DNA of 62,626 nucleotides, counting the filler, from Klebsormidium nitens (taxonomy: Eukaryota > Plantae > Klebsormidiophyceae): NCBI GenBank assembly GCA_000708835.1. It is 8 parts of 8 records of this genome, joined end to end, with 100 filler letters (N's around TTAATTAATTAA, not from the genome) between each part and the next. Parts side by side here need not be neighbours in the genome. Positions count along the whole stretch, not along the records: positions 50,045 to 56,216 come from DF238375.1; 7 more parts are not named here. The stretch is one strand, 5' to 3'. Below, piece after piece: positions 1-56,216 of the stretch. The notes beneath the pieces are model-generated. The model worked only from the letters and a program-made list of their open reading frames with translations, did not search any database and was not told the DNA's origin. Position numbers and translations under genes: made by a program. Position 1 is the stretch's first letter, and each line of letters opens with the position of its first letter.

Positions 1-58
1 GGTTATAGCAGTAGAGCCTGAAATTGCAGAAACTGAGAACCTGGAGGTATGTATAGAC

Positions 59-2577
59 ATGGAAAGCTTTCAAAAAGAGTTCGAGGTAGAACGAGAAGAA
101 GAGACGCCACAATGGGAACCTTGGAATGAAGAAGAACCATCTCAAAGGGGTTCAAACGAAGAGGGCCAGGAAAACAGGCTTGGAAGAAAGATTGCGGTAA
201 GCAGGCGGTCAAACTGGGGTATGAAGTACAGCGTGGTAGATATTCTCAAGGATCAGGAAGTCTTGAACTTCTTTCTGCAGAATGGCAGTTTGCCAGAAGA
301 AGCTCACAAAAGAAGAAGGGTCAGAGACAGAGCGAAAATGTACATGTGGGATGGGCAGTCGGTCAGAATGAGACCCAACGCCAAGTATCCAAGTGGTAGG
401 ATTGTTCCAGCTTACGAACGAAGAAAGGGATTGCTGGACTGGGGGCATAAGAGCACGAATCACATGGGAGCTTTAAAGCTGCAACAACTTATTCAAAAGA
501 GTAACTGGTGGCAGGGACTGAGGCGAGATTGTCAGAAAGTGTGCCATGAGTGTCCAGAATGTAAGCTGGCTGTGACGAACTTTTTCAAGGAACCTAAGAC
601 GGAATTGGAACCAGTGAAAGTCGAAAAGGGATTAGACAGATCCTGAGCAACAGACCTAACTTTTGGGTTCCCTAAGACAGCAAGGGGTAACCACGGGTTC
701 ATAGTGGCAATAGAAAGGCTGTCCAGATGGATCGAAGTTGAGCCGGTCTCAGATAAATCACCATCTACTGTGGCAAGGTTCATACTGAAGGAGATAATAG
801 CAAGGCACGGAGTTCCAAAAGTTATCTGCAGTGATCAAGGCAGGGAGTTCTTCACAGATGTTCAGGATTTGTTGAAGCGATACGGGATTGAGCACATAAC
901 AACCAGTGCTTTTCATCCTCAAGGAAACGGGTTAGCAGAAAGCTCTGTGAAGACTATGATAAACGGAATCAGGAAAAGGGCAGCAACAAGGCCAGATAGT
1001 TGGGACGATGAGGTGCCGTCAGTAGTGTTTGGGTATCGAGTTAGTATCCAGTCGAGTGTGGGGTATACTCCGTTTGAGCTTCTGTATGGTAGGGAGCCTG
1101 CGCTTCCTGAATCCTGTGGGAACTACGAATCAGATTCTCAGTGGTGGGGTTCTTGTACCGTACTACATTCACGGTGGGGTTCTTGTAAAGCGCGGTACAG
1201 TTTGCCCGGGGGACACCGGATCTGGGGCTGATCATCGGGCGGTGCCACGTATTTTGTACGGAAGTCTGCGGACCAATGAGAGAGGGGACTTGGTACCATC
1301 ACGTGGTCTGCTGATCAGATCTGCGGTACCGCCGGTCCGCAGATTGAAGCTGGCGGTACCCCGCAGCCACGGTACCTTCCGATAGGCTGCGGTACTACTT
1401 TTTAGTACCTCGGTAGGCTACAATTTTGAGTGAATGCTCTAGTAAAAATACTACCGGGAAGCCCAGCGCGGTAGGTACCTGGTTGGCTCTTGGGTAGAAC
1501 CTACCTATGTAGCCTACTACCTAGCTAGGCTGCGGCACTTGATCTACCTAGGCTAGGCTACCCTGGGCTCAACTATCGGGGGTAGCCTACCCCGGGCAGT
1601 CATACAAGCCTATGGTCACGGCGATGTGCGGCCGGTAGGTTCTTTGCCCCGGGCCTAAGAGCCTAGCCTACCTATCCTAGCTTACTGTTCACTGTCAGTG
1701 GTTTTGAAGGTACGGCTCGACGGTGACTCCAACTTTGAATTTCGCGACCCGTTGAAACTTACCGGGCGGTCGATCAGACCTAAGATTATAGTAAGCTAGA
1801 CCCCGGTGCGGCGGCGATTGAGTGCAGATCGAGTACCTCAGGATTTAACACAACGAGTCAAAATTGAGTGGCTCTGACGCTCTTCAGAAACTCCGGCGTT
1901 AAAAATAAAAAGTTGAAATGCCGACAGGCTGTACTTATGGTCTGATTTGCAGCTTCAGACCCAGTGTACCGGTCGGCACCGGTCCTACGCGGTACCCTCC
2001 AGAAGTTCCGAATATGTCGGGAGCTAGACTCCACGTGGTCTGGACGTGGGACTCATCGGACGGTGCAGGCTGCGGCCGCCGGCCGCTCGGATCCAGAAAA
2101 ATGGCCAAGTTCAACCGCGCTTTTTCACACTGAACTTGGCCGTGAATGTACGGTGTCTGCTTCCAGTAACGGATAATGAGGACTGGGATATTGAGGAGGC
2201 AACGGATCATCTGCTTAGAAAACTAGACACGCTCGACACAGTACATGAAAAGGCACTGAGGAATTTGGAGAAGGCTCAAACGAGGCAGAAGAAGGACTTC
2301 GACAATAGGCACCGAACGTTTGAGCATGCGACTGAGACAGACGAAGGGATCGAAGTGGGGGATTATGTGATAGCGAGGACGGCCAAACGTAGCAAGGTCC
2401 ATTCTCATGCTATCACGGGGGCTTTCAGAGTCGTGGGCATAAAGGCACGAAAGTTGGTCGAGGTCGAAGATAGAGTGGGGCATGTGTGTATCCATACCAT
2501 CTCAATAACGTGGAGCTTTTGCTGAAGAAAAGCCGGGTGGACGAGGACATGCTGGAACATGGGTTCCTAGGGAATTG
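59..2577 (+). pseudogene. Ty3/gypsy integrase (HHCC zinc domain, DDE core, C-terminal tail), disrupted
   Basis: H-x4-H...CHECPEC zinc motif; core motifs CSDQGREF and GNGLAESSVK. In-frame TGA at 644-646 where W is expected (DRS*ATDL). 7-bp insertion near 1110, 1017-bp insertion at 1139-2155, 2-bp frameshift near 2486. Purine tract AAGGGGGGAAGA at 2651-2662. Confidence 0.93.
1139..2155. mobile_element. Non-autonomous TIR DNA transposon (CACTA/EnSpm-like) inserted in the integrase
   Basis: Intact copies read AGAT-TCT-GCTTCC; here TCT is duplicated at 1136-1138 and 2156-2158 (3-bp TSD). The right end reverse-complements to CACCGTACATTCACGG; the left end has ACCGTAC(TAC)ATTCACGG and a shared subterminal AAAGCGCGGT. 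Confidence 0.8.
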
Positions 2578-2675
2578 AGAAGTAGGGAAGCAATTTGGAG
2601 CATAGGGTGAAAGGCCCGCAATTTTGTAGATATTGGGGACCAATAGTCTTAAGGGGGGAAGATTCACAGCTGTGG

Positions 2676-2804
2676 TGTAACGATTACGACTGGTTAAGCC
2701 TAACCTCGTTCTCGACAGGATTTCGTTGACCGCGAGTTAGCGAAACGGCGGTGGTTACGTCTTAACGACGCACTGCGTGGCTGTCTGCAAAATGGCGTAA
2801 TCAT
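2676..2804 (+). mobile_element. LTR start (family A, TGTAACGATTAC...), truncated by a gap
   Basis: Begins with TG and interrupts CACAGCTGTGG|CGCTC, which is continuous in the next two copies. Near-identical to the reverse complement of about 47862-47990. Confidence 0.8.
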
Positions 2805-2824
2805 NNNNNNNNNNNNNNNNNNNN

Positions 2825-3425
2825 AAAGACTATGATAAACGGAATCAGGAAAAGGGCAGCAACAAGGCCAGATAGTTGGGACGATGAGGTGCCGTCAGTA
2901 GTGTTTGGGTATCGAGTTAGTATCCAGTCGAGTGTGGGGTATACTCCGTTTGAGCTTCTGTATGGTAGGGAGCCTGCGCTTCCTGTGGGAACTACGAATC
3001 AGATTCTGCTTCCAGTAACGGATAATGAGGACTGGGATATTGAGGAGGCAACGGATCATCTGCTTAGAAAACTAGACACGCTCGACACAGTACATGAAAA
3101 GGCACTAAGGAATTTGGAGAAGGCTCAAACGAGGCAGAAGAAGGACTTCGACAATAGGCACCGAACGTTTGAGCATGCGACTGAGACAGACGAAGGGATC
3201 GAAGTGGGGGATTATGTGATAGTGAGGACGGCCAAACGTAGCAAGGTCCATTCTCATGCTATCACGGGGGCTTTCAGAGTCGTGGGCATAAAGGCACGAA
3301 AGTTGGTCGAGGTCGAAGATAGAGTGGGGCATGTGTATCCATACCATCTCAGTAACGTGGAGCTTTTGCTGAAGAAAAGCCAGGTGGACGAGGACATGCT
3401 GGAACAGGGGATCTTAGGGAATTGA
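2825..3425 (+). mobile_element. Gypsy integrase C-terminal fragment, copy 2 (open frame)
   Basis: Near-identical to 950-1138 plus 2156-2577 without the insertions; ORF 2832..3425. Confidence 0.9.
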
Positions 3426-3581
3426 GAAGTAGGAAAGCAATTTGGAGCATAGGGTGAAAAGCCCGCAAGTTTGTAAATATTGGGGACCAATAGTCTTAAG
3501 GGGGGGAGACTCACAGCTGTGGCGCTCAGGGATGATAGCATTCCAAGACATGCTATGGGATNNNNNNNNNNNNNNNNNNNN

Positions 3582-4287
3582 GAAGACTATGATATACGGA
3601 ATCAGGAAAAGGGCAGCAACAAGGCCAGATAGTTGGGACGATGAGGTGCCGTCAGTAGTGTTTGGGTATCGAGTTAGTATCCAATCGAGTGTGGGGTATA
3701 CTCCGTTTGAGCTTCTGTATGGTAGGGAGCCTGCGCTTCCTGTGGGAACTACGAATCAGATTCTGCTTCCAGTAACGGATAACGAGGACTGGGATATTGA
3801 GGAGGCAACGGATCATCTGCTTAGAAAACTAGACACGCTCGATACAGTACATGAAAAGGCACTGAGGAATTTGGAGAAGGCTCAAACGAGGCAGAAGAAG
3901 GACTTCGACAATAGGCACCGAACATTTGAGCATGCAATCGAGACAGACGAAGGGATCGAAGTGGGGGATTATGTGATAGTAAGGACGGCCCAACGTAGCA
4001 AGGTCCATTCTCATGCTATCACGGGGGCTTTCAAAGTCGTGGGCATAAAGGCACGAAAGTTGGTCGAGGTCGAAGACAGAGTGGGGCAAGTGTATCCATA
4101 CCATCTCAATAACGTGGAGCTTTTGCTGAAGAAAAGTCAGGTAGACGAGGATATGCTGGAGCAAGGGTTTCTAGGGAACTAAGAAGCTGGAAGAGAATTG
4201 CCACTTAGGGTGAAAGGCCCGCAAGTTTGTAGATATTGGAGACCAATAATCTTAAGGGGGGAAGATTCACAGCTGTGGCGCTCAAGC
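3582..4287 (+). mobile_element. Gypsy integrase C-terminal fragment, copy 3, with purine tract
   Basis: Same sequence with scattered substitutions; stop at 4180-4182; followed by AAGGGGGGAAGATTCACAGCTGTGGCGCTC. Confidence 0.9.
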
Positions 4288-35039: not shown

Positions 35040-35530
35040 TACCTACTGGTAGGTACCAGTACGTGGTACAGTACGCACGGTACCTACCTGGGTACCCATG
35101 CAGGCCACTACCGGCATACAAATCAGCTACGGTACCTACCCTTCTACCTGCATACCTAGGTACATACTACATACTAGCTCCAGTACCGTACCGTGCCTAT
35201 CAATTTAGAAGGTACCGCTACCTTGGTGTACCGCAGGTACCCAGGTAGGCTTTACGTGATAGTCTACCTGGTACCTACCGCCTTGCTGACCCCGGTTGCT
35301 TGGTGCACCTCCAAGTGGCACACACCTAGAATGAAAAGTGCACCTACCAGCCTCCAGGTAGGTAGGTAGCAGCATGCGGCCTATAGGCAGACGGGAGGTT
35401 CTCGACCGGTGTACCGCTACCGCGGTACCGCCTACGGTACTACCTAGGCAGTGCAGGTACCTAGGTAGTACGGGTACCCCTTATCGGCCGCTCCGGCCCG
35501 CCGTAGGTATATACTATACCATACCGTACC
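35040..35530. repeat. GTAC/GGTACC/CTACC-rich low-complexity tract
   Basis: Dense GGTAC, GTACC, CTACC and GTAGG words, similar in composition to 1290-1700. Confidence 0.7.
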
Positions 35531-39786: not shown

Positions 39787-40054
39787 TAAGGACAAAGAGA
39801 ACAAGCACTTGTAAGTTTAAGATGAAAGAGACTGAGGGCTTGACGGATTAAGATGAAAGAAGTTGAAGACTTGCCAGATTAAGGAAGAAGGGATCGAGGG
39901 CTTTATAGATTAAGTTGAAAAGGATTGAGTGCTTGATTGATTAAGATAAGAGGAGCTGATTGCTTGGCAGATTAAGGTAAAAGAAGTTGAGTGCTTGATG
40001 GATTAAGATGGAAGGGATTGTGTGCTTGGCAGATTAAGGCCAAATAGCCCAATT
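39787..40054 (+). repeat. 31-bp minisatellite, 8+ units, after an LTR-like TGTTAGG start at 39747
   Basis: TAAG anchors at 39787, 39818, 39849, 39880, 39911, 39942, 39973, 40004 and 40035. Confidence 0.9.
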
Positions 40055-45299: not shown

Positions 45300-47288
45300 G
45301 GATCCGTGCATGCGCACATTATCCTTTGGGTACATAAGGATGATGTCGTTCGTGTAGCAAACGAAATCTTGGCTTGCATTCCGGGTGACCTTACTGAATC
45401 TGGTCAGATGTCTCGTCCCAGTGGCCCGCTCCGCGCGCGCTTGTATGACATTGTAAGTCGAAAGCAGATGCACGTGTGCCGCCCTGATGCATGTGTCCGC
45501 GAGGGCCCGTGCAAGGCTGGGTATCCTTTTGAGTCACATTACGGCTTAACGGTAATGGATCCTGTCAGCAACAGGTGGAAGTATTTTCGTCCCGGAACGG
45601 ACCACCGTAACGTGGTATCGTATCATCCGGATTTGTTAGTTCTGTTGAATAACCACATGAACATTCAGCGCGTGACCGAGACAAATTGGTCTGGTTACGT
45701 GCTTAAATACGCTCTCAAATCCGAGCCGAGTGGAGAGCTCAATTTGGACGCTGATTTGGCGAGACGTCTTGGAATCAACCATTTGTCGGAGCAACAGCTC
45801 AAGCTCCTTACTGCAGCCATATTGGCGAGGCCGGTGTCCCCTTGTGAGGCTGCTCTCACCTGCCTTGAGATACATGTCGTTTAGCGCAGCGACACCGTCA
45901 CGTATGTCGACTCATCACCACCTCAGCTTTGCACGCGCCGGTTTTCTACTTGGGCTTCCAAGCCAATCATACCCGCGATTGACTTATATTGTGGGCGACC
46001 GTCTGCGCTGAACGACGTGACGTTCTGTCAATATTTCAGAGACTATGTGGTCAAACGCGAGTCAGCGCAGGGATTTGTGGGCCATGACGCATTTGGCGGG
46101 TCAGTTTTCAAGTCCCCGCATCTAACTCGGTACACGAATTTTCATCCTGAGTCTCAGCCTGAGGCTTATTTCTACAACGTGCTGCTTGAAACTACCCCTT
46201 TTGATGACGAAGCCGACCTGATCTCTCCTGAGAACACCGATCGTTCCTACTTTCATGAATGCATCCTCCGTTCGATCATAACTACCGAATCCGATCTGGA
46301 AGCTCATCTTGACAGATATACAGCAAGGAATCTTTTTACTGATGAGCGGAGACAACATCTCGTCGACCTTATGCTGCAGAAATACCCGATATCTGACATG
46401 GATGACCTGACACCGCTCGATGATCTGCCGTTGAGCGAACGGCTCGATTTTGCCCGTCAAACCCGCGCTGATTGGAACGCGGAGAGTCTGTTTGACCTAG
46501 GTCTGCACGATGACTTTGCTGATGCCACTAATGCCCGGTTGACGGAAAGTCAATCTCGTGTGTCAAACGTCATCCTTACGGCTAGAGGTTCGCATCTGAT
46601 CTCTGGCGCTCCGGGCTCTGGCAAGACCATTTTAACACGCTACCTAGTAAAACAATGGCTGCTCGAAGGTAAAAAGGTGCTTTTATGTGCCACGACGGGC
46701 GCCGCGGCATGCCGCTTGAGTAGAACGGCCACCACCGTTCACAGTCTCTTTGGCATACCCCCGAGAGGAAAATATCTGACGCCTATCAGCTCGACCAGCG
46801 AATTATTCATTAAGCTTATGTTGGCAGAGATTATCGTTATTGACGAGATGTCTATGCTAACCGCCTATATGTTGGATCTCATATTTTATCGCCTCCAACA
46901 AATATGCGGAACTCTTGAAGCCGCGCTCCGCGGCAAACTGATCCTCCTCGTCGGTGATCACGCGCAACTACCAGCTGTGTGTTATCACAGACTGGATGCT
47001 GACGACCCGGTGTGCCTGCAGTGCCACGTGTCTCGGTCACTGAATTGGCCGTTGTTTTCCATTCACGGCCTGCTTGGATCTAAACGTCACACTGATCTCC
47101 CGTTCCTTGACTTTCTGAATGAAATCAGGTTCGATGTGCCTACGCAGGAACGCATCAATGAAGTGCTTGGAGGATGTTTTATAACTGAGGCGGCGGCAGA
47201 AGCTTCGATCGCGGGCGACGTGCTCGTGCTTTGTTCGCATCGCGCCGACGCTATGACGGCGGGGCTAGTTAGCACGCCGTTGAACTGA
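45300..47288 (+). mobile_element. Helitron Rep-helicase, intronless here, one in-frame stop
   Basis: HUH motif HAHIILW; YVLKY catalytic tyrosines; PIF1 motifs GAPGSGKT, ATTGAAA, IDEMSML, GDHAQLP. TAG at 45882-45884 is in frame with the ORF at 46017. Confidence 0.92.
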
Positions 47289-47991: not shown

Positions 47992-49500
47992 TTGAGCTCG
48001 ACGTGCAACGGGAGCACTTGCGGCGGCAGCGGCTCTCTGTACACCTGAGGGAGCGAGCCGTTTATCTGGGAGCGGAAGCGGAACCGAGGTGGTGCGCTCA
48101 TCTGCCGTGCTGGGCACCTCCTCTGCCTTCGATGCGTGGAGGCTGAGTATGAAGCTGGGCGCCCCTTCACGTCGACCAGGACAGGACAAGCCGTCCTTCA
48201 AGAGGAGCTCTTTGCTAAGTATGAGGCGTTTCCAAAGGGACGGGAGCTTCGGGAGGTACAGTCGGGGGAGGAGGCGAGCGAGGGCGGCTATCAGTTCTTT
48301 GTGCAGAGGAGGGACCTCGCCTCATGTCCGTACTGCCGGGAGCCCAAGGCACACACTGCTTCGTCGAGGCGCGGTGTCAAGAGAGCGCTCGAAGAGGGGC
48401 CGAGTCCTCGAGAACTTGGCACGGTGGCGGTCCTATCGGAATTGAGACGGAGCAAGGGAGTCCCTCCAATTGCGATTGCCCCCGGCCTTTTTCTTGTGCC
48501 CCTGCTCGACGCCCGCAGTGGGCGCATTCTGGACGTTTCTGCAACGGATCGGGGGCTCGTCAATGTACCTCGACTCGTGAAGATCGACCACACGGGCAGC
48601 TTCCGGTGCCTCTGCGGTCAGAGGGCATGCCGTGACCACGACATGTCGTTCCTGGAGGCGACGCGTCTCATGGGCGGCTGGTGGCATACTGGCGAGGCCA
48701 TCTTCACGGCCTTTGATGACGGCCGCCCGTTCGAGCGGGAGGTCACGAGAGGCGTGCCTTGGGTGTTGCCTTTGGAACAAGGGGGGTGCGTGGGGGGTGC
48801 ACTCTTTGGGCTAAACGCGGAGGCTTGGAAAGGAGGGCCGCACCTCCAAGTGATTGTCGTGAGCAACCCTGGGGAGAAGCCCGTGGTTTGCGTGCTCTGG
48901 GGAGAGAATGCGCACTGCAGCGATGTCGACTGCTCGGGTCCGGAGCGGTGCCGGCACCTGTTGAGTGTGCTTTCGAAGCCAACCTTGCCCCTGATTGAGC
49001 GCGCAATTGATGGAGGCGGGAGCGAGGCGACGCGCACCCTTGCTGAGAGGCGGGCAGAAAGGGTCGAGCAGCGGGAAGCGGGGGCGAAGAAGCTCTGGAT
49101 CTGCAACGATCCTGTGTGCCGTCGACCAGACTCAAAAGTAGCGTGCACACACCTGGGGACTTTGGAGCCATGGGAGTGCCTTCCGGCGGCGGCCCTTGAC
49201 ACGGGGCACAGCCACAAAAGGATTGATACGGTCATGAGCCGTGGGGGGGGTTCAGGCGTCACGAGCCTGTGCGAGCGCTGGGGCGAGGAACGGGTCAAGC
49301 GGAGAGACGAGACAAGGCATTTTTGTGCCCCGCGGCCCGTCGATGTGCTTTCTCCTTGTGGCCGTCCATGGCAGCTGGAGAGCAAAAAAGGGGCTCTGAC
49401 GACGGCGGGGGCGCGCTACGAGATTACCGCTTACCGGCGTGTCTGTCGTATTGCTCCAGGACGGGAGGCGGCGTGTTGTAGCATCGCGTATGATGGCCAG
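47992..49500 (+). pseudogene. RING + SWIM-like fingers + CxC domain; N-terminal half of a KDZ-type transposase gene
   Basis: CNGSTC...CRAGHLLCLRC...CPYC (RING-like, TGA at 48046-48048). CLCGQRACRDH, CSDVDCSGPERCRH and CNDPVC...CTH. FCAP...PCG...YRRVC...CCSIAYDGQ, then donor GTACGA at 49501. Confidence 0.65.
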
Positions 49501-50044
49501 GTACGAATCCGGTCCCAAAACAGCGCGCGTACGCGTGATTCATTGGATAGAGCTTGCCGCTTGAAGATGCCGTACGATCTCTCGTTCGACAGTATTGGTG
49601 GCGCTTCCAATCGATCGAAGCGAGAGTAAAGATTGTCCGAATACCACTCTCGGAGATCCTCATGATCATTTTTCAACAATGTCTGTTGCTCATTGCCTTT
49701 TATGAAAGCCCGTTCTCTTTGAGCTGAAGGGCTCCAGAAGAGTCAGGACAGCAACGACAATTGTCGGTCGGCTTCCTCCACAAAGATCCGTTGGTTCCTT
49801 GCTTCGGGAGTCTGAAGTGACGATCGGAGGTCGGTGCAGTCTGCAAGGTTCAGGCCGGCTAAGTATGCTTGCATGTCAAAGTTTATTCCTAGATCATTGA
49901 GATCCCTGTAGTGCCTCACAAGGTTCTTTCTCCTTGTTGCTGTGNNNNNNNNNNNNNNNNNNNNNNNNNNNNNNNNNNNNNNNNNNNNTTAATTAATTAA
50001 NNNNNNNNNNNNNNNNNNNNNNNNNNNNNNNNNNNNNNNNNNNN

Positions 50045-50457
50045 AGGGGGGGAATTACCTTCTCGAATTTGCAAAGGGGCAATTCCGATTGGTATTGAAG
50101 AACTTCAAAACCGTCAAGACACATGGCGTCCAGACTATTGACTTGCCTACTCGAACCAACAACGTGATAGCTGAGAGTCTTCAGGTTTTCCCTCGAAAGT
50201 ATCTTTTGAGCCGCATGAGGACTCCCGACGCCCCAATGTCCAAAAACTACCTCACTAAGTTCTGCGGGTCAATCTTTCCTGACGCCAACATTGGTACTTG
50301 CTTGCTTCGTAAGATCTGTGTCTCGAATGCTATGAAAGATGCTCCCAGTTTGGCCGAAAGGGACGCTCTGGCAAAATCCATGCTTCATACATCCTTGATT
50401 GCTCAACATGTCTATGAAAAGAAGTACCTTCCGGATGGAAGCAAGATTCAATTCTAA
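50045..50457 (+). CDS. Tyrosine recombinase, C-terminal catalytic part (5' truncated)
   Basis: Frame is open from the contig start: GNYLLE...LVLKNFKTVKTHG (catalytic K), IGTCLLRKI (R), LAKSMLHT (H), QHVYEK (Y). Confidence 0.8.
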
Positions 50458-50542
50458 CGGTTGGATTGCTTTCCATTCGATTGAGTTGCATCATGGAACC
50501 CTACTAAACTATTGAAGCATTTTTGCAACGTCTGGCAAACGT

Positions 50543-50866
50543 TCATGATACCTCAATGCCTGCAAACGCTGACAATGTGTAGACTGGTGTTTCAGCTTGA
50601 TTTATATCAGAGGGCGAGACATCAAAGCCCGCGTTTGCCAAACGGATCAGCGTCTGTCTGTGGAACCTCTTTGTGTTGCCTTCAAGGAAGCGCTTGTACG
50701 CCTTCTGCATCAAAATCTTTTCAGAATTGCGATTATAGTACGCCTTGACATGAGCATTGTGCCTCTCGGGGTGCATTTGCTGATATCGTCGATGGTTCTC
50801 ACAAGCACGGCATGAGCATCGACGTTGGGTGGCGTCCTTGAAGCTGGCGGAGTCCTCATGGAACAT
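50543..50866 (-). CDS. Small basic protein, 107 aa, unknown
   Basis: ATG at 50866; CSCRAC and AYYNRNSEKILMQKAYKR; divergent from the primase across a 100-bp AT-rich gap. Confidence 0.55.
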   Translation of the reverse strand: MFHEDSASFKDATQRRCSCRACENHRRYQQMHPERHNAHVKAYYNRNSEKILMQKAYKRFLEGNTKRFHRQTLIRLANAGFDVSPSDINQAETPVYTLSAFAGIEVS

Positions 50867-50966
50867 GTTTTGTCCTGCAATGTAGCTACGAAAAAAAGAA
50901 ACACTCGCACAAATAGCCGCGTTCAAAACATTGTTTTATTTTCTTGACGACTGACTATAGAAAACA

Positions 50967-53765
50967 ATGGCTGAGCACGGCAAGCACGAATTTCATGATG
51001 GCTCTAGGGCCTTGGCCCCCCAAGAGACTAAGGCCCTAGGGCCCACGGGCATCAAGGACGAGGTTAAGCGCTTGGCCGGTCTTGGCTACTACGGAATCCC
51101 GGTTCATGTCACACAAAAATCAAACGGTAAAAAGAGCACCCGATTTCCCAACAAGTGGGAGCACATAAAGACTCCGCAAAGCTGGAAGGAGAACATCCAG
51201 GGCATACTCGATCAATTCGTCGATCCAAACGGCATTGCAATCCTAACGGGTCCAAGCAATCTCTATATTATCGACGTTGACGTGGACGGAGATGACAAAA
51301 AACCGTCCGGTATGAGCCTCTGGAAGACGTTGGTAGCCGAACACGGACAGCCGGATACCTTAAAAGTGATCTCTGGAAGGAATGGCCTGCATCTGTACTT
51401 TAAAAGAGATCAAACTATTGGCTTGAAAAAGCTGAACAACTTCCAAGGTTTGACATTGAAGAATGTGAGCTATACGCTGGATGGACGCGGGGTTGGCGGT
51501 GTGATTTTCGCGCCACCGACGGCCTATAGCGCAAACGGCAAGCTATTTCAATACAGATGGGTTTCGGAGCCGGTACAAGGTGAGAGGGGGGATGTAAAAG
51601 GGATCCCCAGATGGCTTGCAAATGTCATCAATACCGGACGTGACAAGCAACCGGCCGGTCCGAGCATTGCCTTGCCAAATACTATCCAAAGCGACCACAC
51701 ACACGCTCGCAATGAAGATTCCCAGCCGACAAATGGCGAGCGCGAACTAAGCAGCAATCAAGCCGCCGGCTTCAAGATGGATTCAGCAGCTGTACGTGAG
51801 GTGCAAGAGTTGCTACGCAAACACGCTGCGAACGACTCGACCGCACTCTATGGCGGCTCAACGACGCTCCCAAATGGCAATCGATCCTTTCAGTTTCGCG
51901 TGAAAGGGCCGAGGACTTGCTATCTTGGAAGCAACCACAATGGTTCGAACAACTTTACGGTGATTCAAGGATGCGCTGGGGACTTTCAAGAGGTCTACTA
52001 TCGATGTTTTGGAACGGCATGTTCCGGCCAGAGCACCAAACTTCTTGGAAAGTTGAGCATCGCCGCAGCTTTTGAGCAAGTGGGGGTGGTGGAGTTTGGA
52101 ATAAGAGATGGTGCGGTGAGTTGTGCAAGCACGTTAAATGCACGGCTGCCTCATCCGTTCTTGGAGGCAAATGTAGGCCGGAGCGACTGGGGTGCCGCTT
52201 CGATATTTGCCAACCTCTTCGAGCACGACAGGCGCGTAGTCTATGATGCGGGGGTGTTCTGGACGTGGAATGGGGTGGCGTGGGTGCAATGCGATTCAGA
52301 CGCCACGGAGATCAAGAGCGCTTTCATGTACCACATGGGTAGAGTGAAAGCGTATTGGCTCAACAATCTAACGACTATGTGTAATGAAGAGCTCGACAAG
52401 GCCAAATTAACAATGGCTGCAGGGTTGGAGAGTCTTCGAGCAGCTCAAGAGCATGCGGAACAGCTGTCGGAAGAAGACGTTCGCAAAAAAAAGAGCAATG
52501 AAAGGGCGATCTTGAAGGCCTTTCAGCAAAGTAAACAAGGTGCAGAGAAGATGACCAAATGGCATGGGCCCGATGTGGAGTCGGTACCAATTGCAAGCCG
52601 ATGCATCGTCCCATTGAGACGTCTCCTGAGGGTCAACAATTTTGCCAAGGAGCTCAACGCAGCTCGAGATTTCTTAAACACGACATCCGGCGCAGTACAC
52701 CTGCCGACAGTTCAATTGATACCTCACCATCCCCGTAATACTATGCTCTCAAAAGAGTCTTCAACCGAGTACGAGGGACCTACATACCCGTCTCCGTTGA
52801 TCGACGAATTCATGTTGCAGGTGCAGACTGCAGAAATCATCCCCATACTCCAAATGACACTTGGATACGGCATCACGGGCCATAGCAAAGAAAAGCAATT
52901 CATAATCATGTACGGGCCATCCAATTCAGGCAAGACGAGGCTCGTCGCAATGCTCTCAGGGGCAATCGGCCCATATTGCGTCACCATGGATAGAGATTGC
53001 GTCATCGGGGCCGGCTCTCGCTCGGAGGGCGCAGCAACGCCGCATCTTGTGACGCTAGAAGGCGCGCACGTAGCCGTCTTAGAGGAGACCAAGGACGAAG
53101 ACTCGTATAACGCTGCAAACCTCAAGTCCATTGCCTCTGGCAATGGAGCCATGACCGTTCGGGGGCTGCACATGAAGCCGATCGAAGTCAACATGCGTTG
53201 TCTACCTATCATCTGCACAAACGCTCTTCCTAAGTTCAATGTAAGCGATTCGGGGACACTGAAGAAGCTTCGCGTCTTTCCATTTACTCGCGAGTTTGTC
53301 GATAAGCCTCGCCCAAACACGAACGAACGGCTTATTGATTCCGACTTGGTCGACAAGATCAACACTTCAGAGTGGAGAAAGCAGATGCTTGCTTGGCTTG
53401 TTCGCGGAAGTATGGCGTGGTATGCAAAAGGCGGCCTTCCGAATGTGGAAGAGCTACCTGAAGCCATGCAACGTGCTCTCGACGGCTATATAAAAGCCAA
53501 CGACCACTTCAACAACTTTATCGTGGACCATTGTATCCTTCGTGAGGGCAAGGTGTGTCATGTAGACGTTCTCAAACAGGCATACGAGAACTATATTGGA
53601 AGACGCGACCGTCCCATGATCGTAACAGAGTTCAAGGTCCTCATGAAAGGCCTGAAGGGTGTCACTTATGAAAAGCAAATCAAGTTGCGAGGGCGGAATA
53701 CAACCGGGTACAGAGGCATATGCTTAAGTTACGCCGCTGATGACGCGGAAATCTCAAAGGACTGA
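50967..53765 (+). CDS. Primase-helicase: Prim-Pol (bifunctional AEP) domain, zinc-binding region, D5_N and SF3 helicase; 932 aa, intronless
   Basis: NGIAILTG, YIIDVD, SGRNGLHLYF, DGRGVGGVIFAPPT, YRW. C-x5-H...YYRC-x4-C. VYDAGVFWTWNG. Walker A GPSNSGKT, Walker B AVLEET, motif C IICTNALP. Confidence 0.95.
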   Translation: MAEHGKHEFHDGSRALAPQETKALGPTGIKDEVKRLAGLGYYGIPVHVTQKSNGKKSTRFPNKWEHIKTPQSWKENIQGILDQFVDPNGIAILTGPSNLYIIDVDVDGDDKKPSGMSLWKTLVAEHGQPDTLKVISGRNGLHLYFKRDQTIGLKKLNNFQGLTLKNVSYTLDGRGVGGVIFAPPTAYSANGKLFQYRWVSEPVQGERGDVKGIPRWLANVINTGRDKQPAGPSIALPNTIQSDHTHARNEDSQPTNGERELSSNQAAGFKMDSAAVREVQELLRKHAANDSTALYGGSTTLPNGNRSFQFRVKGPRTCYLGSNHNGSNNFTVIQGCAGDFQEVYYRCFGTACSGQSTKLLGKLSIAAAFEQVGVVEFGIRDGAVSCASTLNARLPHPFLEANVGRSDWGAASIFANLFEHDRRVVYDAGVFWTWNGVAWVQCDSDATEIKSAFMYHMGRVKAYWLNNLTTMCNEELDKAKLTMAAGLESLRAAQEHAEQLSEEDVRKKKSNERAILKAFQQSKQGAEKMTKWHGPDVESVPIASRCIVPLRRLLRVNNFAKELNAARDFLNTTSGAVHLPTVQLIPHHPRNTMLSKESSTEYEGPTYPSPLIDEFMLQVQTAEIIPILQMTLGYGITGHSKEKQFIIMYGPSNSGKTRLVAMLSGAIGPYCVTMDRDCVIGAGSRSEGAATPHLVTLEGAHVAVLEETKDEDSYNAANLKSIASGNGAMTVRGLHMKPIEVNMRCLPIICTNALPKFNVSDSGTLKKLRVFPFTREFVDKPRPNTNERLIDSDLVDKINTSEWRKQMLAWLVRGSMAWYAKGGLPNVEELPEAMQRALDGYIKANDHFNNFIVDHCILREGKVCHVDVLKQAYENYIGRRDRPMIVTEFKVLMKGLKGVTYEKQIKLRGRNTTGYRGICLSYAADDAEISKD

Positions 53766-53852
53766 GGCCGATTGGCTGGTCTCCCAATTTTGCGCATGAT
53801 TCTTGCGGACATGCATCATGTTCATGGCATGTTACATGCATGCTAGCAAAGG

Positions 53853-54138
53853 AGGTAGGTGGGGGGTAGGTATGGGGTAGGTGCTTCAAAAACCAGTTGT
53901 TTTGGAATAACCTAAGGGTTAATAATTAAAAGGTAGGTAAAGTAGGTATATATATTATATATTATATGAAAATTGTTTTCAAAATGCATCATCGTGACGT
54001 GTAAAACAAACAATTCTCTTCGAGAGCAAGCGGGCGCCTACCTACCTACTTACCTACCTCAAATTTAAGTGTATCGACCTTTCAACCCTGCTTCACCAAT
54101 TGCTTCACATTAGAGCGACCTACCCCCCAAACCTACCT
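53853..54138. other. Origin-like structure: two concentric inverted-repeat pairs around an AT-rich core
   Basis: Outer pair AGGTAGGTGGGGGGTAGGT (53853-53871) / ACCTACCCCCCAAACCTACCT (54118-54138). Inner pair AGGTAGGTAAAGTAGGT (53931-53947) / ACCTACTTACCTACCT (54044-54059). Both centre on about 53995. Confidence 0.75.
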
Positions 54139-54176
54139 GCTCCAAGGATCGCTCTTTTAGGATCGAAAATTTAATG

Positions 54177-56216
54177 TCAAATCGACCATCTTCCGTGGCC
54201 GCACCTACCTATCCCCGGAGCAGCACCGCACAGATTGCAATCGACCACACATGCACTCGCAGCAATTCCCACGCCTAGCTTTGCATCATCCACCCGCTTC
54301 AGCCCAGCATTGTAGGCATCGAGGAGAAGCGGGAGGATCACCATAAAGCTTTCAAGCCCCGAGTACCAGCCGAGAGACCGAAACCCCTTCAGAAAGGAGT
54401 TGACAGACTCCACGGCCGATGTGTTGACCCAGCGAAGCGAGTCGTAGCTGTCCGCGGAGTTGCTTGGCCCACACTTGTGGACCTCGGCGCCTGCCTTTGC
54501 GTAGTGAAACCTGCGAGCCCCACACAAAACGTGTACATGAGCATCAATGTTGTGGTTCAATACCCAACTCCAAAGAGTCACAAGCTCCAATGTATCACCT
54601 GCTCAAGTCCATTGGCGATATAGATACACATGTACACGTCCTCCATTCCTTGCTCAAGCTCACCTGTCCACCACGAACCGTACATTTGCAAAGTGCGCCG
54701 GTGCGCGTCTCATACAATAGTTGCGAAGGGCGCACGCGTTGTCGTAGACCACCACCTCCGGGAGATCCTCGCGCCTCAATCGCGTGTACAGAACCGCAAA
54801 TGGGTCCCGTGGGCTTTCGCCTCGAAGCATGACATGGAAGCCGTAGATCACCCGATGTGGACAGCAGAACACGAACACACCCCTGCTTCGAGTGGGCCGC
54901 TTTGCAGCGCCCCCCTTCTTGCCTCCTTTCCCTCCCCCCTTCACGAGGCCGGGGACGTTCTCAGAGTCCCAATCCGTAATAGACTTTCCCGTCGCACACT
55001 TGAACTCTTCCGAGCTTCGACTACGACCATCCGAGTGCTCAAAGCTGCTGTATTGTGGCAGGCCTCGCTTTTGCTCCCACCCCGGAAAGCTATAGTGCGC
55101 CAGCGCGTCTTGCTCGGCTCTGAAGGCGTGTCCCTTTGGCAATGGATGCAACTCAACCCCCTCCTCGTCGCGCCCCAAACGGTCCCAGAGCAAGGCCCTC
55201 TGCCTCTCGCTCATCGAGCGCCATTGCTGTGGGCTTGGACTCAAGTTCTCGACGCCCGGAAGGAGCTCGTTTGCCAGAGCGCGCGCCTTTTCCAAACGCC
55301 CGCTCTCCTCTTGCGACAGAGGTCTCTCTCTCGCCTCACGCAGCAGCCAAACGGCCTCGTCAAACGGCCGGACCGCTTGGTAAACCCACCCAAACTCCCC
55401 TTCCAACTTCGAACCCTGTCGTCCCTCTTGCGGCAAGCGTTAGAAGGTACAGCTGATGGAGGGTCCCCATGAAGAACGCAGGGAACGTGAGCCCTCCGTA
55501 TGCATCAAGGATCCGCCTCAGGATCGGGGCCGCTCCCCCCATTTGCCGCCGGTCCTCGAGCGAAGCCTCGCCCCCGAGAAGCAACTTGTGGATCACGCCG
55601 AGAGCGGCCCCTCCGATCAGATCCTCGTCCGAGTCGTGGGCCCCCAACGAGTAAAGCAACTCGGTCCACTCCCCAACCCAGCTCTCCCAGAGGTTGGGAT
55701 TCATCCCTCTCGCCTCAAAGTCCGCTTGGATGCCCCTTAGGAGCTCGTAAACCGCAAGGTTGCGGTCCCTCACCATGGTTCGCTGCTCCGTCAGCAGGCG
55801 CCTCTTGCCGTCCTCCGGGAGTGGACCCTCAGCTTCGCCCGGACCGATGCATTTCACCACGCGAGGGTCCTCGTGCGCTAGGCCGTTCAAGAGGCTCGTA
55901 AAGCCCGCTTTCGACAGCCTTGGCCCGAGCTTCTCATCCTTCGGTCGATGCTGCGACAGGCGAGCAATTGCGTCTCGTAGCTCAGGCTGAAGGAGAAGCT
56001 TTCGTTTCATCCCCGCTCCTTCCAGACCCGCCCCGCAATAGTCTCGACCAGAGATGGACCGCTTCTCAAGCAGCTCCCCAGTCGCTAACCGACTCGGATG
56101 CACCATTGTTCGTCGAGCATCTAGAGTTGTGCTGCCGAGACCCCCCGGCTTTCTTCCCCCATCCGAGTTGGCAAGCCCCACGATCCCGTCGCAAAGGAGA
56201 ACCTGTGTATGAACAC
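54177..56216 (-). mobile_element. KDZ (Kyakuja-Dileera-Zisupton)-type transposase core
   Basis: GVFVFCCPHRVIYGFHVM...ESPRDPF...VVYDNAC...FVVDR|FHY...NTSAVESVN. Intron 54511-54663 is phase-consistent. Frame change near 55430. Confidence 0.85.

What the first reader, a model, noticed from the sequence alone, without database searches (positions are those of the whole stretch)
50045..54138. Compact tyrosine-recombinase + primase-helicase + origin module: a candidate self-replicating integrative element in a eukaryote
Seen: within one contig, about 4.1 kb carries an intronless YR catalytic domain, a small basic ORF, an intact 932-aa Prim-Pol/Zn/D5-SF3 protein and a symmetric repeat structure right after its stop codon. 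These ORFs show no stops or frameshifts, unlike almost every other mobile element in the window. Established: D5-like primase-helicases and YRs occur in Polinton-like viruses, virophages and NCLDVs, and integrase + primase + ori is the core layout of bacterial phage satellites such as P4 and PICIs. Known eukaryotic YR transposons (Crypton, DIRS) lack a primase. Inference: this is a satellite- or plasmid-like element that excises by YR and replicates from its own origin, or else the end of an endogenous PLV.
Basis: partly seen in the sequence, partly recalled or inferred. Interest (0 to 1): 0.88.

Follow-up and report, generated by a model that had tools for sequence, protein, structure and literature searches.

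The report
Algal virus end with satellite-style origin
A recombinase gene, a small gene and a primase-helicase gene followed by a mirror-image repeat array sit in the chromosome of what is likely a Klebsormidium-type green alga; they are most likely the replication-and-integration end of a small integrated virus (a Polinton-like virus) whose capsid genes would lie beyond the contig break, and the array is a predicted replication origin built like those of bacterial phage satellites.

Summary
The observation mostly holds. The contig starts at an artificial spacer (50045) inside a tyrosine recombinase gene, so only its last 136 of about 350 codons are seen and the left end is unknown. The recombinase is real (catalytic K, R, H, Y present; family model folds like Cre) and of the virophage/Polinton-like-virus/giant-virus type. 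The 932-aa Prim-Pol/Zn/SF3 gene is intact; the small ORF is conserved. The repeat array is far beyond chance: five GTAGGT units face five inverted ones across an AT-rich centre, the layout of SaPI origins. The module is integrated (one 4.2-kb assembled piece runs into a host-type KDZ transposon remnant), multi-copy, and its best named relatives are Klebsormidium nitens genes. The order recombinase, primase-helicase, inverted repeat is the published end module of Polinton-like viruses, and K. nitens has seven published PgVV-group capsid loci. Linkage to capsid genes was not shown: only a weak numbering match supports it. Best reading: end of an endogenous Polinton-like virus (about 0.62). A capsid-less satellite stays open (about 0.2). 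The lasting value is a sharply defined, testable origin candidate.

The parts
49945..50044 (.). Artificial contig spacer (44 N, a 12-base tag, 44 N); not biology; hides the left part of the element
   Evidence: 7 identical spacers in the window
50047..50457 (+). 3' part (136 codons) of a virophage/PLV-type tyrosine recombinase; K at 50107, R at 50308, H at 50386, Y at 50413; first catalytic R lies upstream of the contig start
50543..50866 (-). Small basic ORF, 107 aa from the conserved ATG, CxCxxC motif plus conserved helix; family found only as unnamed proteins; regulator role inferred
50867..50966 (.). 100-bp gap between the divergent small ORF and primase-helicase starts; shared promoter inferred
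   Evidence: sequence
50967..53765 (+). Intact 932-aa primase-helicase: Prim-Pol 51096-51614, Cys/His cluster 51918-52022, D5_N 52197-52823, SF3 ATPase 52911-53237 with Walker A at 52914
53810..53842 (.). Short CATG-rich hairpin after the stop codon; role unknown
53851..53947 (+). Left arm: GTAGGT at 53855, 53866, 53877 (11-bp period), 53933, 53942
53948..54036 (.). AT-rich centre (71% A+T over 85 bp; up to 85% in 40-bp windows at its left side); predicted unwinding site
54037..54143 (-). Right arm: inverted GTAGGT at 54040, 54044, 54052, 54118, 54131 plus one variant at 54048
54177..56216 (-). Frameshifted KDZ transposase remnant, multi-copy host-type flank; the junction with the element lies somewhere after 54143
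   Evidence: (PF18758, E 4e-4, below cut-off)

Best explanation
The stretch is an integrated, multi-copy recombinase / small gene / primase-helicase / repeat-array module, most likely the replication-and-integration end of an endogenous Polinton-like virus (probably PgVV group) of a Klebsormidium-type alga, whose capsid and packaging genes would lie left of the contig break. Shown: gene identities, order, intact primase-helicase, polarised repeat array, continuity with host-type DNA, diverged copies in the same and other samples. Inferred mechanism: the tyrosine recombinase integrates and excises a circular form; primase-helicase hexamers bind the opposed GTAGGT units through their C-terminal domain, melt the AT-rich centre and prime replication in both directions; the divergently transcribed small protein regulates this; virion production probably needs a giant-virus helper.
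For: Recombinase family: nearest Atlas clusters are 100% viral, mostly Preplasmiviricota; best BFVD folds are algal giant-virus and virophage recombinases; the distant relatives whose loci I examined carry Sputnik-type capsid genes (L002, L003, L125). Order recombinase / primase-helicase / inverted repeat is the PLV 'end module' of PMC11296320. K. nitens has 7 published capsid loci (PMC10120064 Table S5; PgVV group by main text, and my column count), and I met 7 K. nitens scaffolds with this recombinase or primase family. Recombinase is the commonest information gene of PgVV-like PLVs. One K. nitens gene model joins the same recombinase to an unrelated SF3 helicase, the replicase turnover described for PLVs. 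Post-hoc numbering test: 4 of 5 testable capsid contigs fit 4 replicase scaffolds at one break rate. Origin layout matches the SaPI description (PMC9371898).
Against: No capsid, ATPase or terminal repeat gene or sequence was seen next to any copy. The numbering match arises by chance in 4-43% of random draws depending on null and tolerance, assumes contigs are numbered in scaffold order, and could not be calibrated. The array has no near-identical partner in the same sample (unbroken 4218-base piece), so no classical terminal inverted repeat is visible. No close relative in IMG/VR. Many copies are truncated, as for a transposon family. No binding, replication or excision data.
Confidence: 0.62

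Rival explanations
1. A capsid-less, self-replicating integrative element of about 5-7 kb (recombinase, regulator, primase-helicase, origin), a eukaryotic counterpart of P4/SaPI-type satellites that rides on Polinton-like or giant viruses.
For: Three-gene order kept in a copy whose primase is 28% identical (proteins P0007 and P0020 on contigs of the same length, 6906; P0007's N-terminal extension is the antisense of the small ORF). SaPI-like origin layout. No terminal repeat partner. A host-linked recombinase clade of 18 rows with 99% support and many broken copies.
Against: Rests on absence where the DNA is unseen; the same order is a known PLV end module; the host genus has as many published capsid loci as I found replicase loci, with a weak numbering match; examined relatives of the recombinase sit in capsid-encoding viruses.
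Confidence: 0.2
2. A mobile cassette inside a larger giant-virus (NCLDV) insertion.
For: K. nitens carries several distinct NCLDV inserts (PMC5294986 section 3.3); top BFVD matches of the recombinase include algal giant viruses; giant viruses and PLVs exchange these genes.
Against: Right flank is a host-type transposon, not viral genes; a K. nitens copy is gene 2 of a scaffold whose gene 4 has a moss orthologue; a dedicated origin right behind the replicase suits a small replicon (inference).
Confidence: 0.13
3. Bacterial, phage or free-virus contaminant or chimeric contig.
For: Intronless genes; 829 phage records match the helicase, the 15 listed at 21-25% identity; short contig.
Against: A 4218-base piece with no differences bridges primase, array and KDZ remnant at depth 15.9, like neighbouring pieces (probably the source sample); all named close relatives are K. 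nitens; no relative in 185,579 prokaryote genomes by two pattern scans; no phage match for the recombinase.
Confidence: 0.03

Closest known systems
Polinton-like viruses with a replicative end module (AHEV_PLV2, CBEV_PLV1, Gezel-14T; PMC11296320, parts 1-4 of 8 read)
   Same: Primase-SF3 helicase between a tyrosine recombinase and an inverted-repeat region proposed to be the origin; helicase swapping between related elements.
   Different: Here the primase domain is Prim-Pol (PF09250), a small divergent ORF lies between the two genes, the repeat is an iteron-like array with an AT-rich centre and has no visible partner copy, and capsid genes are unseen.
PgVV-group endogenous PLVs of green algae and K. 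nitens (PMC10120064 passages and Tables S1, S4, S5 rows; bioRxiv 2022.07.28.501842 passages and one section; PMC4642659 passages)
   Same: Host lineage, integration, OLV11-like type of recombinase, primase-helicase in place of pPolB.
   Different: Membership rests on the capsid protein, which could not be seen; Gezel-14T itself uses a PolA-type TVpol-helicase.
SaPI/PICI and P4 satellites (PMC9371898, PMC7145576 passages)
   Same: Fused primase-helicase; 6-12 hexamer iterons right behind the rep gene, in opposite directions around an AT-rich centre; tyrosine integrase.
   Different: Eukaryotic host; recombinase of the virophage/NCLDV family; no att site, tRNA target or helper shown. Works like, not a member.
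Archaeal plasmid pRN1 (PMC4234260, abstract)
   Same: Small regulator gene plus large replication protein, origin in a stem-loop directly downstream. That ORF904 is a Prim-Pol/SF3 protein is recalled.
   Different: Free plasmid without recombinase; regulator co-transcribed, here divergent.
Crypton, DIRS and other eukaryotic tyrosine-recombinase transposons (recalled; Crypton named in PMC12220804 passage)
   Same: Tyrosine recombinase, many chromosomal copies.
   Different: They have no primase-helicase or origin; this recombinase groups with viral proteins.

Membership tests
Tyrosine recombinase superfamily | Catalytic R-K-(H)-R-H/W-Y set | tested here: met
   In 119 rows: R 117, K 119, R 118, H 116, Y 116; window holds K, R, H, Y; first R is off-contig; the HxxR histidine is replaced family-wide
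Tyrosine recombinase superfamily | Integrase fold | tested here: met
   Model of relative P0020 (74% identical to the fragment), pLDDT 95; top PDB hits Cre, XerA, lambda Int, E 2e-4, TM about 0.55 for Cre; profile hit to integrase 3NKH E 5.5e-5
Prim-Pol / SF3 primase-helicase | Primase domain, Zn-type cluster, Walker A/B and motif C in one open frame | tested here: met
   motif names from own knowledge
Polinton-like virus (PgVV group) | [quoted passage not shown] | tested here: inconclusive
   Not in the 6.2-kb contig; upstream DNA unavailable; only a weak numbering match in K. nitens
Polinton-like virus (PgVV group) | Minor capsid protein and A32 packaging ATPase | not testable with these tools
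   Left of the contig break
Polinton-like virus (PgVV group) | Replicase plus integrase near one end | tested here: met
Polinton-like virus (PgVV group) | Terminal inverted repeats (47% of good loci in PMC10120064) | tested here: inconclusive
   No near-identical second copy of 53766-54428 in the same sample, judged from an unbroken piece at even depth; other end unseen
Polinton/Maverick | pPolB and rve integrase | tested here: not met
   Replicase is Prim-Pol/SF3 and the integrase is a tyrosine recombinase in the part seen
SaPI/PICI/P4 satellites | Opposed iterons round an AT-rich centre just behind rep | tested here: met
   (layout only; function untested)
SaPI/PICI/P4 satellites | Bacterial host, att site, helper phage | tested here: not met
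   Algal relatives only; none in GTDB scans
NCLDV insertion | Neighbouring NCLDV core genes | tested here: inconclusive
   None to the right; left unseen

The most novel reading that the evidence does not exclude
A capsid-less, 5-7-kb family of integrative replicons in streptophyte algae, built exactly like a bacterial phage satellite (tyrosine recombinase, small regulator, fused primase-helicase, SaPI-type iteron origin), that multiplies in the nucleus and hitch-hikes on resident Polinton-like or giant viruses: a eukaryotic PICI.
Probability: 0.2. Interest if true: 0.8.

Novelty: new member of a known kind. Interest (0 to 1): 0.4.

Why it matters
Where primase-helicase Polinton-like viruses start replication is hypothesised, not mapped, in the papers I could read (PMC11296320; search). 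This locus gives a crisp candidate: ten hexamers in SaPI-like layout behind an intact replicase, testable with one purified protein and a 300-bp probe. It also describes the replication module of such elements in an early-diverging streptophyte alga, close to the land plants that are reported to lack PLVs (PMC11296320 introduction). If full copies lack capsid genes, it would be a new class of self-replicating eukaryotic mobile element.

Tried and rejected
No whole genome is held, so upstream DNA and other copies could not be read. Pfam, PHROGs and a single-sequence PDB search missed the recombinase fragment; a 19-row model was poor (pLDDT 58) and gave only weak Cre hits. Pattern scans found no close relative in IMG/VR, GTDB (37, 76); JGI metagenome and IMG/VR scans gave only distant recombinases at 24-29%. 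A repeat-motif scan of IMG/VR gave 119 loci; none held the recombinase or small ORF, one held a D5-type helicase 4.5 kb away, and of 3 with polarised repeats the two whose ORFs I listed are phage-like: rejected as unrelated. A second GTAGGT-rich patch at 35041-35530 scores 6, lacks the clean polarity and has no replicase: rejected as a second origin. Rest of the recombinase elsewhere in the window: none. Sigma-70 promoter and terminator scans at chance level. No clear recombinase core site in 53760-54300. No RNA holder listed. Depth equal to neighbouring pieces gives no sign of amplified circles but is no measure of copy number. Calibrating K. nitens contig-to-scaffold numbering failed. Dataset S1 of PMC10120064 draws K. 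nitens loci, but gene arrows are not readable as text; the 'BANV01 / Pri-Hel' rows are legend labels, not annotations. Contig-length overlap in JGI proteins was low: 1 of 7 small-ORF contigs and 0 of 5 primase contigs share a length with a recombinase contig; searches were length-limited and capped, so this may mean decay or missed hits. The recombinase tree is the quick version; the careful search did not finish.
Full report
Setting. The window is eight contigs joined by seven identical 100-base spacers. The finding lies at the start of the contig 50045-56216, so 50045 is an assembly break, not an element end. No whole genome is held. The host is inferred to be Klebsormidium-like: every named close relative of the genes is from K. 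nitens (4 of the top 10 primase hits; 2 of 19 recombinase hits; one more). The rest of the window is transposon debris and a few host-like ORFs.

Recombinase. Frame 3 is open from 50047 to the stop at 50457. Pfam, PHROGs and PDB miss it, but 19 of 263 longer candidates match at 65-87% identity and show a protein of about 350 aa, of which the window has the last 136. A profile finds 2199 representatives at E 0.001 or better, 16 at 1e-30. In 119 aligned rows the near-invariant columns are R, K, R, H and Y in integrase order; the window keeps K, R, H, Y, and the first R is off-contig. The profile hits integrase 3NKH at E 5.5e-5. A model of relative P0020 (pLDDT 95) matches Cre, XerA and lambda integrase and, better, recombinases of algal giant viruses and a virophage. 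The nearest Atlas clusters are viral, mostly Preplasmiviricota. Six loci with distant relatives were fetched; the three whose genes I examined carry Sputnik-type capsid genes. This fits the OLV11-like recombinases of PMC4642659 (passages); the label is my inference from those matches. The window's protein lies in an 18-row clade with 99% support that excludes the virophage proteins (quick tree).

Primase-helicase and small ORF. 50967-53765 is one open 932-aa frame with Prim-Pol, D5_N and an SF3-type domain, an invariant Cys/His cluster, an intact Walker A and weak matches to solved primase-helicases. Phage matches are remote, 21-25% in the 15 rows listed of 829. The small ORF has 8 relatives among 11 candidates; they start at the ATG at 50866, leaving a 100-base gap to the divergent primase start. 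Its function is unknown to the Atlas; regulator is an inference from size, charge and position.

Repeat array. Ninety bases after the stop, five GTAGGT units (three at an 11-base period) face five inverted units across an AT-rich centre. A motif-blind polarity score gives 10; 1000 shuffles reach at most 5, and tiles over the array rank first to third of 532. It folds at z -4.85. PMC9371898 (passages) describes SaPI origins as 6-12 penta- or hexamer iterons immediately behind rep, in opposite directions on either side of an AT-rich region; pRN1's origin also lies just behind its replication gene (PMC4234260, abstract). The match is of layout; function is untested.

Integration and copies. In runs X1/X2 (one sample, perhaps the source) a 4218-base piece covers 50211-54428 with no differences at depth about 16, bridging genes, array and the KDZ remnant; KDZ-side pieces have similar depth (32 of 503 pieces and 24 of 171 loose ends were shown). 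Loose ends and joints there translate as diverged paralogues of the recombinase and primase, and one contig links the small ORF to the primase upstream region. Two other studies (X5, X8) hold close copies in the same order, including pieces bridging recombinase to small ORF, primase to left arm, and both arms; one X8 contig keeps both inner repeat clusters around a different centre. The unbroken piece argues against a near-identical second copy of the array, so no classical terminal repeat is visible. The right junction is undefined; the KDZ remnant could be target or later invader. By equal contig length (an inference), a Logan contig of 6906 bases holds a recombinase and a 28%-identical primase whose N-terminal extension is the antisense of the small ORF, and a JGI contig of 43596 holds recombinase and small ORF. 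K. nitens model KFL_001520110 joins recombinase and primase-helicase; KFL_008920020 joins the recombinase to an unrelated SF3 helicase. Against tight linkage, few JGI contig lengths overlap (see Tried and rejected).

What is known. PMC11296320 (parts 1-4 of 8 read) defines a PLV end module of recombinase, primase-helicase and inverted repeat, proposes the repeat as origin, and reports helicase turnover. PMC10120064 (passages and supplement rows) finds primase-helicase and recombinase commonly beside capsid genes, terminal repeats in 47% of good loci, and 7 capsid loci in K. nitens, in the PgVV group. The Gezel-14T preprint (passages and one section) calls the recombinase the commonest information gene of that group. 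PMC5294986 (section 3.3) reports several giant-virus inserts in K. nitens. PMC12220804, PMC11161782, PMC7145576 and bioRxiv 2025.04.19.649669 were seen as passages. Searches found no paper that describes this Klebsormidium module, an iteron origin in a PLV, or a capsid-less eukaryotic recombinase-plus-primase element; many subscription papers are not held.

Capsid linkage. Not shown. I met seven K. nitens scaffolds with these genes (ranks 152, 375, 816, 892, 1006, 1407, 1768). Assuming contigs are numbered in scaffold order, four capsid contigs fit ranks 375, 816, 892 and 1006 at 17.4-18.3 extra contigs per Mb, all within size limits. Two capsid contigs and scaffold 152 were left out as outside the modelled range. 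Random sets do as well in 4% to 43% of draws, the pairing was noticed before testing, and calibration failed (sizes from PMC4052687 supplement). It is a hint only.

Verdict. Real module, real recombinase, real origin-like array, integrated in an algal genome. Most likely the end of an endogenous Polinton-like virus (0.62); capsid-less satellite 0.2; giant-virus insert 0.13; contaminant 0.03. New member of a known kind; interest 0.4, carried by the testable origin and the open capsid question.

Noticed in passing
window 35041-35530: Dense patch of GGTACC/TACCTA-type palindromic repeats inside transposon-like DNA; polarity score 6, no replicase nearby.
   Followed up: partly
window 54203-54216: One more inverted GTAGGT unit lies inside the 3' end of the KDZ remnant, 60 bases beyond the array; chance, element extension or a target-site likeness.
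   Followed up: partly
window 45306-47288: Helitron-like Rep and PIF1 helicase frames on a 2.1-kb contig (PF05970 E 2e-16).
   Followed up: no
window 48136-49629: 497-aa Cys-rich ORF without Pfam match, resembling the N-terminal part of KDZ transposases (resemblance recalled); on a separate contig.
   Followed up: no
window 1-4200: Several near-identical tandem copies of a retroelement integrase end (rve), separated by short gaps; possibly an assembly artefact or tandem array.
   Followed up: no
window 39800-40054: Tandem units of about 42 bases (GATTAAG-containing) at a contig end.
   Followed up: no
window 51000-51043: 14-base inverted repeat within the first codons of the primase gene.
   Followed up: no
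L125:8799-11453: Virophage recombinase fused in one 884-aa ORF to a lipase-like domain (GHSLGG motif, recalled).
   Followed up: no
L012:750-1030 and L081:1540-1830: Phage contigs with GGTAG-rich and CCTAC-rich tracts in opposed order between genes; unrelated to this element.
   Followed up: partly
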